Shown piece by piece: positions 54,226 to 62,144 of a DNA stretch of 64,000 nt. The position numbers and the translations under genes are program-made. Within the stretch, counting starts at the first letter, position 1, and each line of letters starts with the position of its first letter. The notes below the pieces were generated by a model. That model searched no databases and had not been told where the DNA came from. It saw nothing but the letters and a program-made list of their open reading frames with translations. Location of the stretch: contig NC_091471.1 in the NCBI RefSeq assembly GCF_036971445.1, positions 329,282,001-329,346,000 on the forward strand, in the 5' to 3' direction. This DNA comes from Narcine bancroftii (Eukaryota).

Positions 54226-54749
54226 GTGAGCGGTGGCTTTTCCATTGCAGGGGATCATGCTTACTTTCTTACTTCTTCACTCTGCCCCACCTCATAGGGT
54301 GTTTCACTGCCACCCCTCCCTCTCTATGTAACATCCTCTGATCCGCTGTACCTCCTCCCTGTCAATGTAACCCCCTCCAGTTCCCTAAACTCCTCCCTAT
54401 CTGTAACCCTATCTGAGTCCCACACCCCTCTCCATCTCTGTAACCTCCTCCAGTCCCTTACACTCTTCCCTGTATCTGTAACCCCCTCTGGTTCCCTACA
54501 CTCCTCCCTGTCTCTGTAACCCCTCCAGTCCCCTACACCCCTCCCTGTCTCTGATCTGGACATCAATAAGAGGCAGATGGAAATGAGGGTGTGCAAGTTT
54601 TTGGCCTTCACAGAGATCCAAGTGAACAGATCACATTAAGTTCACAGGCAGTTTCCCTTTCTTGTAAAGGGGCTGGTGTTGATGAACAGGGAGCCTTTGT
54701 TCCAGTTGCACAGGGTAATGGTGAGGATGGAATCAGCCCCTGACCTGAG

Positions 54750-55995
54750 AAAGGAAATCCTAGACTGGTTAGCCTGACATCTGTGGTTGGGAAGATGTGG
54801 GAGTCAAAGATGAGGTTACAGAGTACTTGGAGACATGTGACAAAACAGGCCAAAGCCAGCATGGTTTACTTCAGGGAAAGACTGGCTTCGCAAACCTGTT
54901 GGAACTCTGAGGAAGTGACCAGCCGGCTGGGTATGGGAGATGCAGTGGATGTTGTGTGTCTGGGTTTTCAGAAGGCCTTTGACAAGGGGACGCACATGAG
55001 GCTACTGAACGAGATAAGAGCCCATGGTGTTACAGGAAACATACTAGGAGAACATTGGCTTATTGGCAGGAAGCAGAGAGTCGAAATACAGGAATCGTAT
55101 TCGGATTGGCTGCCGGTTGCTAGTGATGTTCCAAGGGGTTGGTGTTAGGGCCACTTCTTTTCACAATTTAGATTATGAAATGAACAGCTTCGTGGCCAAG
55201 TCTCCAGACAATACGAAGGAAGATGGAGGGGCAGGTGGTGTCAAGAAAACAGGGTGGTTGCAGAAGGACTTTGGTCAGGATAGCAGGCAGAGAAGTGGTA
55301 AATGAAATACAATGTCGGAGAGTTTACGGTCGTGCACTTTGGTTGAAAAAATAAACAGGCAGACTGTTTTATAAATGGGGAGAAAATTGAAAATCCCCAG
55401 ATACAAAGGGACCTGGGAGTCCTCGTGCAGAACAGCCTGAAGGTAAAGTTGCAGGTGGAGTTGGAGGTGAAGAAGGCAAACGAGATGCTGCCGTTCATTT
55501 CAAGAGGTAGAGAATATAAGAGCAGGGATGTGATGTTGAGGCTTTAAAACCCCCGGTGAGCCCCCATGTGGAGTATTGTGAACAGTTTTGGGCTTCTTGT
55601 TGAAGAAAGGATGTTCAGAGGATGTTCACTTTGTGAATAAAAGGGTTATCGTGTGAGGAATGTTTGACGGCTCTTGGCCTGGACTCGTTGGTATTTAGGA
55701 GAATGAGAGGGGAATCGCTGAAACTTTTTGAATGTTGAAAGGCAGGACAAAATAGATGTAGAAAGGTTGTTCCCCACGGTGGGAGAGTCCAGGGCAAGAG
55801 GGCACAACTTCAGAGTTGAAGGGCATCCGCTTAGAACAGAGATTCGGTGGAATTTCTTCAGCCAGAGGGTGGTGAATCTGTGGAATTTGTTGCCACTGGC
55901 AGTTGTGGAGGCCGGGTCACTGGGTGTATTTAAGGGATGATGAAATGGGGCAGACTCGATGAGTTGAATGGCCTATTTCTGCTCTTATTCCTTAT
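54750..55995 (+). mobile_element. Decayed CR1 LINE (RT to 3' end)
   Basis: VDVVCLGFQKAFDK, WLIGRKQRV, SDWLPVASDVPRG, RWNFFSQRVVNLWNLLP, plus the tail TGAATGGCCTATTTCTGCTC. Confidence 0.9.
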
Positions 55996-56362
55996 GGTTA
56001 TTGGGTTGACACCACACTCTAGGCTGAAGGATCTGTGAACTGTGCTGTAAATTTCTAGGTTCTGTGAGATTGGATTTTGAAAGATCATGATGTTAAGAGG
56101 GCTGTGGAAGTGGAAGTCTGGGGCACACCATTCTAGAGGGGCCAAGTGGCAACTATCATTTTGTGACATCCGTGAATTCTGGTTCCAGCCTCTGGCTCCT
56201 ACCTCAGTTCCAGTTACTCCACTGGGGGAGGAGTCACGTGATGGAGTAGTGGCCGGTCAGGGAATTCCAGCCCTCTCCCGAAAAGTTTAAAAAAAAAACA
56301 CACAAAGCACAAAGGTACAAGATTAAAATTTATAATAAAGTAAAAATAAAGGTGAGAAGAAA

Positions 56363-57576
56363 ATGGCAGTGAAGAGAGAAAAGTCGAAAACAACGGGAAG
56401 AAAAGAGGAAAAAAGAATGTCGGAAGAAGAAGGTGAAGGCCTTACCCGTCCGAAGAGGCCCACCGCGGAGAGAGAAGCCCGCTCCCTCAGGTCAGTGGAA
56501 GTCCCGGGCTCGGGACCACAAAAATGGCTCACAGAGCCGAGTAAAAGTGCGCGACCGTGCATGAAAAAAAACACACTGACGGGAGGGGGGAACAGCTGCG
56601 GAGTCGATCTCCACAGCTGAGAGAGACACCTGCAGCACAGCAGCAGGTGCAGAACACAGACAATAATGACAACAAGAAAGAAGAGGGTAAAAAGAAAACA
56701 AGGAAACAACAGATGGTCAACCCAGAGGAAGAAGAAGAAGAACAGAAAGAAGTGGAAGAAGAAGAGAAAGGCAAGACAATGGATGTATCTTTTTTTAAAG
56801 AATATATGGAATCAGTGAAAGAATGGCAATTGCAAGAATTTGATGAGATAAAAAGAAGAATTAAGAGTGCAGAAGAAAAAATGAATAATTTAGTAATGGT
56901 CATGTCAGAGATAGGAAAAAGAGTGGAAAATATGGAAAAACGAGAAATAATTGTAGAAATGGAAGTAGAGGAATTAAAAGAGAAATTAGAAGAATCTAAT
57001 AAAAAAGTTAAAGAGACACATGAGCTGTTAGCTCAGAAGATAGATATAATGGAAAACTATAATAGAAGAAATAATATAAAGATAGTGGGCCTTAAGGAAG
57101 ATGAAGAAGGCAAGAATATGAGAGAATTTATAAAAGATTGGATCCCCAGGGTCCTAGGAAGACCAGAATTACAGGAAGAAATGGAAATAGAGAGGGCACG
57201 TAGAACTTTAGCCCCGAAACCACAACCGCAGCAAAAACCAAGATCCATTTTAGTAAAATTCTTAAGATATACAACAAGAGAAAATATATTGGAGAAAGCA
57301 ATGAAGAAAGTAAGAGAGGACAAAAAGCCACTGGAATATAAAGGTCAAAAAAAATTTTTCTATCCAGACATAAGTTTTGAACTCCTGAAGAAGAGGAAGG
57401 AGTTCAATACAGCAAAAATGATCTTATGGAAAAAAGGATATAAATTTATGTTAAAGTATCCAGCGGTACTTAAAATAGCTATTCCAGGGCAACAAAACAG
57501 ACTATTCTCGGATCCAGAGGAAGGAAGGAAATTTGCAGAACAACTACAAAATAAGCAGAGAGATGAAGTCATGTAA
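56363..57576 (+). CDS. L1 ORF1; open from 56557 to 57576, probable N-terminus at 56363 joined by a frameshift in the A8 run at 56564-56571
   Basis: MENYNRRNNIKIVGLKE, IERARR, KPRSILVKFLRY, FYPDIS, KYPAVL. Confidence 0.85.
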
Positions 57577-61000: not shown

Positions 61001-61862
61001 GAAAATTGTTTTTCAGGAAATAGATTATTATCCTTTGAACAAATGAAAGATAAATACAATATAACTCAAGATACAGTGCTGGCATATTACCAATTGAGAT
61101 CCTACTTGAAGGACAAATTAGGAAGCAGTCTGAGGTTACCAGAGGGAAATAACTTTGAATATGTGATTACAGATACAATAATAATCAAAAGATTTATAAC
61201 AAATATGTATATTAAACTGCAAGAAAAGGAGAATGAGGAAACAAATGGTAAAGCTAAACAAAAATGGGAACAAGATTTAAATATAAAGATAAAAAAGGAA
61301 ACATGGGAGAAGTTATGTTCTGGAACGATGAGAAATACAATAAATACGAGGTTACGTATGATACAATATAACTGGATACACAGGCTATACATTACACCTC
61401 AAAAGTTAAATAAATGGGACCCAACAGTATCTGACAGATGTTTTCGATGTAAAAACGAAATGGGAACAACAATTCATGCAATCTGGACATGTGAGAAAGT
61501 AGAAAAATTTTGGGAAGATCTAAACCAAATAATAAATAAAATTACAGAAAACAATATACCAAAAAATCCAGAGATCTTCCTCCTAAGTAACATAAAAAAC
61601 AAAGAATTTGGAATTGATTTGGATGGTGCACAAAAAAGATTTGTTAAGATAGCTCTAGCCGTAGCAAAAAAAATGTATTATGTCAACCTGGAAATTGGAA
61701 GATAATTTGAAAATACAACAATGGTATATAGAAATGAATAAATGTATTCCATTAGAAAAAATAACATATAGTTTAAGAAATAATATTGAAATATTTGAAC
61801 AAATATGGGAGCCTTACATGAAACACAATAGAGAAAACCTACTGGGGACATTCACTACCTAA
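58091..61862 (+). pseudogene. L1 ORF2 (endonuclease plus reverse transcriptase), broken by several frameshifts and stops
   Basis: MATLNYMTLNINGL, QETHL, SDHSP, DQTGF, LDAEKAFD, RQGCPLSP, LFADD, CFRC...HAIWTC. Confidence 0.95.
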
Positions 61863-62116
61863 ATTAACGAATGGAGAAGGAAAAGAAAAGAATTGACTCA
61901 GTGGAATTTCTTGTTTATTTTTATTGAATGACAACATTGTTTGACTGGTTTAATGTATCTTAGATTTTGTACTTTAAATGGATGGGGGGGGGAGGTATGG
62001 AGGGTGGGATGGGAGGAGGGGGAGGAGAAAATGACTGTATATATTTGAAAAGGAAAATGTATGTATCATGGTCAATGTGATTTATGGTGTGAAAAATAAA
62101 AAACTTTAAAAAAAAA

Positions 62117-62144
62117 GAATTTGTCACTCGGGACAACACCAGAG
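62117..62144 (+). pseudogene. WDR45: 3' rump of a WDR45 exon directly after the L1 poly(A)
   Basis: GAA TTT GTC ACT CGG GAC AAC ACC AGA G|GTAAGG = EFVTRDNTRG versus human EFDTRDNPKG, with the donor in the expected phase 1; no acceptor or 5' half present. Confidence 0.8.

What the first reader, a model, noticed from the sequence alone, without database searches (positions are those of the whole stretch)
54226..62144. WDR45 disrupted by an L1 that lands inside an exon and replaces 2.5 exons
Seen: the L1 A-tail is followed immediately by EFVTRDNTRG|GTAAGG, the last 28 nt of a WDR45 exon. I found no copy of GAATTTGTCAC at the L1 5' end, so no target-site duplication. I also found no trace, between 54226 and 56223, of the exons encoding DHEQVGS…PKFSEIS, VLIWDDARE…VRMRHD or KIVIVL…PRKLF. 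Known: L1 integration can delete target DNA, L1-L1 recombination also causes deletions, and WDR45 loss causes BPAN in humans. Inference: this is a null or pseudogenised copy. Substitutions at otherwise conserved residues (GVWIY for GVRIY, VTRDNT for DTRDNP) fit relaxed selection.
Basis: partly seen in the sequence, partly recalled or inferred. Interest (0 to 1): 0.7.

Follow-up and report, generated by a model that had tools for sequence, protein, structure and literature searches.

The report
Decayed spare WDR45 copy with L1
This is a broken spare copy of the autophagy gene WDR45 in an electric ray: a jumping gene sits where 1.2 kb of it is missing, an intact copy lies 255 kb away, and the spare was likely already decaying before the jump, so it is an ordinary pseudogene and not a natural knockout.

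Summary
A full-length L1 (56224-62116) replaces exactly 1,200 bp of a WDR45 copy: the end of intron 2, exons 3 and 4 and 67 of 95 nt of exon 5, with no target-site duplication. But this is not the animal's WDR45. An intact paralogue (11 coding exons, 358 aa, all GT-AG) lies 255.6 kb downstream in a ~22 kb duplicated block, and it carries the letters seen in spliced RNA contigs. All 19 amino-acid differences fall on the window copy, including LRRG to LRSG; 20 replacement changes against 20.4 expected under neutrality, none on the paralogue. The L1 is about half as old as the duplication, so the copy was likely already free of selection when the L1 arrived (p 0.005-0.04). The deletion most likely arose during insertion (about 65%); recombination between two L1s is not excluded (about 25%). 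Assembly error is unlikely. Proteins on this contig are labelled Narcine bancroftii. Verdict: an ordinary duplicated pseudogene with an L1-associated deletion; no WDR45 loss, no bearing on BPAN.

The parts
49050..64000 (+). Duplicated block holding WDR45 copy A; continues about 7.5 kb past the window (to window-equivalent 71560). Its twin is G000:C8 ~329587600-329613260, holding intact copy B (coding 329591328-329610035)
   Evidence: 6.5% substitution divergence over 10,777 aligned non-coding sites
53736..53784 (+). Copy A first coding exon (ATG); R5H relative to copy B
54151..54225 (+). Copy A exon 2; R28W (GVWIY)
54226..56223 (+). Retained part of intron 2, colinear with copy B up to the L1 junction
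55180..55297 (+). First exon of the public 262-aa gene model XP_069779376.1, inside repeated DNA of intron 2; likely a prediction artefact
56224..62116 (+). Full-length L1 element (5.9 kb) replacing 1,200 bp; 5' end intact, at most 1 bp (G) microhomology, no TSD
56713..57576 (+). L1 ORF1, open
   Evidence: match to LINE-1 ORF1p E 5e-11
58173..61705 (+). L1 ORF2 in at least five open pieces over three frames (endonuclease, reverse transcriptase, CCHC knuckle at 61439); dead
62092..62116 (+). L1 A-rich tail, same form as other family copies
62117..62144 (+). Last 28 nt of exon 5; D137V
62977..63056 (+). Copy A exon 6; S166N
63722..63844 (+). Copy A exon 7; S173L, I179V. Exons 8-11 follow beyond the window with LRRG to LRSG, a 3-nt in-frame deletion and further changes

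Best explanation
The window holds a duplicate of WDR45 that lacks 1,200 bp where a full-length L1 now sits, while an intact copy lies 255.6 kb downstream; the duplicate likely lost selection at or soon after its birth, and the deletion likely arose as the L1 inserted. Shown: two loci, one intact; the exact deletion; all amino-acid changes on the window copy. Inferred order: (1) a ~22 kb segment with the whole coding gene was duplicated; (2) copy A evolved neutrally; (3) about half-way to the present an L1 was primed at TTT|GAATT in exon 5 and its 5' end was joined 1.2 kb upstream in intron 2, deleting the DNA between instead of making a TSD; (4) being in a redundant copy, the event was tolerated. 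Copy A would make no working PROPPIN; copy B likely supplies WIPI4 function.
For: Two loci for exon 7, one for exon 4. Copy B: 358-aa open frame, 10 of 10 introns GT-AG, 80-93% identical to 14 of 15 vertebrate homologues. A vs B over 263 codons: 20 replacement, 17 silent changes. At all 19 changed residues A's letter matches at most 1 of 15 outgroups; 11 of the 19 are invariant in them. Neutral expectation per lineage 20.4 replacements: A 20 (ratio about 1, CI 0.59-1.42), B none (p 3e-8). Neutral rates are even (61 derived in A, 72 in B). L1 private non-CpG divergence 73 of 5,630 (1.3%) against 2.56% per lineage since duplication, ratio 0.51 (0.40-0.62); had A been constrained until the L1, 10.3 changes are expected, p 0.005 (0.036 at the upper bound). 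The L1's 3' part matches copies chosen by its 5' end at 95.5-98.6%, a level only 6 of 18 unselected local copies reach; no step in divergence. Contigs of run X1 hold the 3' junction with no difference. Contigs of runs X6 and X7 (RNA by the tool's guess) show only B letters at the three exon sites listed and B's exon 3-4, 4-5, 5-6 joins.
Against: Copy A has no stop or frameshift in its remaining exons and keeps its splice sites; exon 2 could join exon 6 in frame (255 aa); only 0.5 stops were expected, so this weighs little. The 3' junction is a so-so nick site: top 2.8% of positions, but only 1 of 20 family sites starts with G, while a site 18 bp left of the 5' junction scores better (top 0.9%; 12 offsets looked at; observed TSDs 11-17 bp). 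Non-coding divergence is uneven (3.6-12.4% by segment), so gene conversion may blur the dating. X7 holds two intronic contigs identical to A at depth about 4.7: DNA carry-over or weak transcription. The 5' junction was not seen in the listed contigs, and the 3' contig has only 27 nt on the L1 side and comes from the probable source sample.
Confidence: 0.7

Rival explanations
1. Same pseudogene, but the deletion came from recombination between two same-strand L1s that inserted separately into copy A, one in intron 2 and one in exon 5.
For: A good family-type nick site lies 18 bp left of the 5' junction, as a leftover half-TSD would. L1s are dense here and copy B took its own L1 cluster in intron 5. 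In humans such deletions (73) are as common as insertion-mediated ones (50 in human and chimpanzee) (PMC3543922 passages).
Against: Copy B has no L1 at either breakpoint, so both would postdate the duplication, 1.2 kb apart. Both ends belong to one young subfamily and the 5'/3' divergence ratio (1.45) lies inside the range of 24 other copies (0.56-1.75). 18 bp is outside the 11-17 bp TSDs seen. The 28 informative sites were too few to test chimerism.
Confidence: 0.22
2. The L1 event itself killed a copy that was functional until then.
For: It is the only clearly disabling structural lesion; no stops or frameshifts elsewhere. The lower CI of A's replacement ratio (0.59) nearly meets the upper CI of the L1's relative age (0.62).
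Against: 20 replacements against 10.3 expected (p 0.005-0.036), and the L1 age is an upper bound.
Confidence: 0.1
3. Assembly artefact: misjoin between two L1s, or false duplication of one haplotype.
For: The junctions border a high-copy repeat; no listed contig spans the L1; the 5' junction was not seen in the cut tables.
Against: A and B differ by 6.5% and have private insertions; X1 holds both types side by side at similar depth; run X5 of another study holds four contigs identical to A where A differs from B by 2-27 substitutions; the 3' junction lies mid-exon, so a misjoin could not explain it.
Confidence: 0.03
4. Copy A is expressed as a shortened in-frame propeller with a new role.
For: In-frame routes of 255 and 264 aa exist on paper; a public 262-aa model exists; faint A-type intronic contigs in X7.
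Against: Neutral replacement rate; LRRG broken; residues 42-134 lost, the stretch that corresponds to ATG2-binding blades 2-3 in WIPI3 (PMC7264293 passages; mapping by offset, inferred); the model's first exon lies in repeated DNA.
Confidence: 0.04

Closest known systems
Duplicated (unprocessed) pseudogene from a segmental duplication
   Same: Keeps introns and flanks, intact parent nearby, disabling lesion, neutral evolution.
   Different: Nothing essential; the only structural lesion is the L1-associated deletion, and no stop codons have arisen yet.
L1 insertion-mediated deletion (Han et al. 2005, Gilbert et al. 2002; seen here only as summarised in PMC3543922 and PMC1920257 passages)
   Same: L1 with intact A-tail, no TSD, target DNA lost on its 5' side.
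   Different: In a cartilaginous fish; full-length element; removes exons; nick site only a moderate fit; ancestral state read from a paralogue, not an orthologue.
L1 recombination-associated deletion (PMC3543922 passages)
   Same: One L1 without matching TSD in place of deleted DNA.
   Different: No ancestral L1s at the breakpoints in the paralogue and no sign of a chimeric element.
WDR45/WIPI4 loss in human BPAN
   Same: Same gene family; copy B is 80-93% identical to 14 of 15 vertebrate homologues tested and its exon 5 matches human WIPI4 8kbx.
   Different: The ray keeps an intact, spliced copy, so there is no loss of function to compare.

Membership tests
Functional WDR45/WIPI4 (PROPPIN), copy A | Full-length propeller sequence | tested here: not met
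   Residues 42-134 of 358 deleted; Pfam PROPPIN 47.6 bits over profile 126-249 for the A model against 99 bits over 4-250 for a B isoform
Functional WDR45/WIPI4 (PROPPIN), copy A | LRRG phosphoinositide-binding motif (PMC7264293 passage) | tested here: not met
   LRSG in A, LRRG in B and R in 15 of 15 outgroups
Functional WDR45/WIPI4 (PROPPIN), copy B | Open full-length frame, LRRG, purifying selection, spliced transcript | tested here: met
   spliced contigs in runs guessed to be RNA
Duplicated pseudogene | Intron-bearing copy with an intact parent and shared flanks | tested here: met
Duplicated pseudogene | Disabling lesion and neutral evolution | tested here: met
   278 coding nt lost; 20 replacements against 20.4 expected
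Duplicated pseudogene | No functional product | tested here: inconclusive
   Contigs show B letters only at three exon sites but cannot show absence; faint A-type intronic contigs in X7
L1 clade retrotransposon | ORF1, APE endonuclease, RT, CCHC knuckle, A-tail | tested here: met
   Best matches are LINE-1 ORF1p (5e-11), endonuclease (3e-7), ORF2p RT (1e-53, against 6e-14 for R2)
L1 insertion-mediated deletion | Target DNA lost, no TSD, no L1 at the breakpoints in the ancestral state, intact 3' tail | tested here: met
   with copy B as ancestral proxy
L1 insertion-mediated deletion | Endonuclease-type nick site at the 3' junction | tested here: inconclusive
   Top 2.8% of positions by a matrix from 20 family sites; 1 of 20 starts with G
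L1 recombination-associated deletion | Two parental L1s in the pre-deletion allele | not testable with these tools
   Absent from copy B, but an intermediate allele of copy A cannot be seen; no relatives are held for this genome
L1 recombination-associated deletion | Chimeric element | tested here: inconclusive
   No step in divergence, one subfamily at both ends; too few informative sites
Endonuclease-independent (non-classical) L1 insertion | 3' truncation and no poly(A) tail (PMC1920257 passages) | tested here: not met
   3' end and tail intact

The most novel reading that the evidence does not exclude
Copy A is transcribed in some tissue (for example the electric organ) and spliced in frame around the L1, possibly through the AG that the L1 tail and the exon remnant create, to give a 255-264 aa half-propeller that acts as a decoy in autophagy.
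Probability: 0.04. Interest if true: 0.55.

Novelty: new member of a known kind. Interest (0 to 1): 0.15.

Why it matters
Little. It removes the idea of a vertebrate living without WDR45. What remains is a clean, datable example of an exon-removing L1-associated deletion in a cartilaginous fish, with the ancestral sequence preserved in a paralogue, and a warning that the public 262-aa 'WIPI4-like' protein model is probably an artefact on a pseudogene.

Tried and rejected
Natural WDR45 null: rejected by copy B. Further copies: none found, but the searches score few candidates (4 and 1). Looking for A-type versions of the deleted 1.2 kb in reads: in X1 and X3 the non-repeat bins 741-923 of L002 hold only one B-identical contig each, as a real deletion predicts, but holes are common and the tables are cut, so this is not counted as evidence. 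No run was on record as RNA; X6 and X7 are RNA by guess. X5 gave no contig at either junction, so presence of the L1 in a second individual is untested. Chimerism test by shared variants: 28 sites, uninformative. Promoter loss as the cause of early decay: no clear CpG island could be assigned upstream of either copy, unresolved. Later deletion starting at the tail of an ordinary intronic L1: needs a break within 1-2 nt of the tail end, judged unlikely. Two of the 39 non-self hits were not fetched, and L064 was left out of the divergence counts as an apparent duplicate of L063. Papers: searches (top 12 of 407 and 15 of 818 listed) showed no title on a WDR45 duplicate in a ray; this is weak. Han et al. 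2005 was not held. No supplements were read. Earlier scan findings: none returned. No structure prediction was run.

Full report
What is in the window. The element is an L1: its pieces match LINE-1 ORF1p, endonuclease and reverse transcriptase best, it has a CCHC knuckle, a complete 5' end and the family's A-tail. ORF2 is broken into pieces. Proteins on a contig of the same length as this one are labelled Narcine bancroftii, an electric ray (PMC13546158, search listing only).

A second copy. A search of the own genome with the junction flank gave two places: the window and one about 250 kb downstream. An exon 7 search gave the same two loci; an exon 4 search gave only the downstream one. The downstream copy (B) has 11 coding exons, 10 of 10 introns GT-AG and an open 358-aa frame. 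The shared block runs from about window 49050 to 7.5 kb past the window and differs at 702 of 10,777 aligned non-coding sites (6.5%), too much for alleles.

The lesion. B preserves the ancestral site. Copy A follows B to 56223, then the L1, then resumes 1,200 bp further on in B, inside exon 5. Lost are exons 3 and 4 and 67 nt of exon 5, residues 42-134. Microhomology is at most one G. Of 37 close L1 relatives fetched, 21 showed both ends and 20 of these have an 11-17 bp TSD, so the missing TSD is abnormal.

Selection. Over 263 shared codons A and B differ by 20 replacement and 17 silent changes, plus a 3-nt deletion in A. At all 19 changed residues A's letter matches at most 1 of 15 vertebrate homologues, and 11 are invariant among them; LRRG, the lipid-binding signature (PMC7264293, passages), reads LRSG in A. 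With rates taken from the block's non-coding DNA, a neutral lineage should gain 20.4 replacements: A has 20, B none. Rates in shared repeats are even between the copies (61 and 72 derived changes).

Order of events. The L1 carries 73 private changes in 5,630 non-CpG sites (1.3%, an upper bound on its age) against 2.56% per lineage since the duplication, a ratio of 0.51 (0.40-0.62). Had A been constrained until the L1 came, 10.3 replacements are expected; 20 gives p 0.005, or 0.036 at the upper bound. So the copy was likely already neutral. Caveats: divergence varies from 3.6 to 12.4% among segments, and the L1 is AT-rich.

Mechanism of the deletion. Both junctions sit at the exact ends of the element, which points to insertion-coupled deletion or to recombination between two L1s. 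The 3' junction is a moderate nick site (top 2.8%; 1 of 20 family sites starts with G), and a better site lies 18 bp left of the 5' junction (top 0.9%, 12 offsets examined, just outside the observed TSD lengths), so the sites do not decide. The element looks like one piece: copies chosen by its 5' end match its 3' part at 95.5-98.6% (26 copies), which only 6 of 18 unselected local copies do, and its 5'/3' divergence ratio is within the range of 24 others. My estimate is about 65% insertion-mediated, 25% recombination, 10% other. Both kinds are known from primates (PMC3543922, passages); the endonuclease-independent kind needs a truncated, tailless 3' end (PMC1920257, passages) and does not fit.

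Reads. All runs were contigs. X1, probably from the source sample, has a contig identical to 62090-62678 across the 3' junction, with 27 nt on the L1 side, and holds A and B types side by side. X5, of another study and organism label, has four contigs identical to A where A differs from B by 2-27 substitutions, but none at a junction. X6 and X7, RNA by the tool's guess, show only B letters at the three listed exon sites, at depth over 2,000, and X7 shows B's splice joins through the exons that A lacks; X7 also has two A-identical intronic contigs at depth about 4.7. Contigs cannot show that A is silent. The 5' junction was not seen in the cut tables.

Annotation. The public model XP_069779376.1 (262 aa) starts in repeated DNA of intron 2 (55180-55297) and splices to an AG made of the tail's last A and the exon's G; with no pyrimidine tract before it, this is likely an artefact (inference).

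Verdict. A real but ordinary feature: a duplicated WDR45 pseudogene with an L1-associated 1.2 kb deletion. That WDR45 loss causes BPAN in people is stated in abstracts listed, but the ray keeps an intact copy. Interest 0.15.

Noticed in passing
window 40390-47566 (+): Rabenosyn-5-like gene (FYVE and Rbsn Pfam domains) ending about 1.5 kb before the duplicated block; its Rab-binding exon was found once in the genome.
   Followed up: partly
window 1-30000: About 25-30 kb of strongly G/A-skewed satellite-like repeat (GC skew about 0.9), continuing upstream of the window.
   Followed up: no
L004:10000 to L005:8640 (G000:C8 ~329595210-329603640): Intact copy B took its own 8.4 kb cluster of nested, opposite-strand L1s in intron 5, with a TSD, only about 380 bp from the site hit in copy A.
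   Followed up: partly
G000:C8 ~329367350-329441600 (L009, L027-L033): Very recent tandem triplication of a ~22.5 kb unit (98.8-99.8% identical) holding LTR-retroelement frames (RT, RNase H, integrase); may be real or an assembly expansion.
   Followed up: no
L038:7746-9458 (+) and L023:742-2454 (-): Two single-frame 571-aa UDP-glucuronosyltransferase ORFs in an inverted duplication that flanks copy B.
   Followed up: no
L009:1807-2046 (+): A caspase-domain exon (Pfam Peptidase_C14, E 2e-11) downstream of copy A.
   Followed up: no
L010:1-6000: CpG-richer stretch that by eye looks like the 5' part of an endogenous retrovirus-like element; recalled resemblance, observed only.
   Followed up: no
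window 50900-51470: A short unit present about twice in copy B is expanded into a tandem array of about 570 bp in copy A.
   Followed up: no
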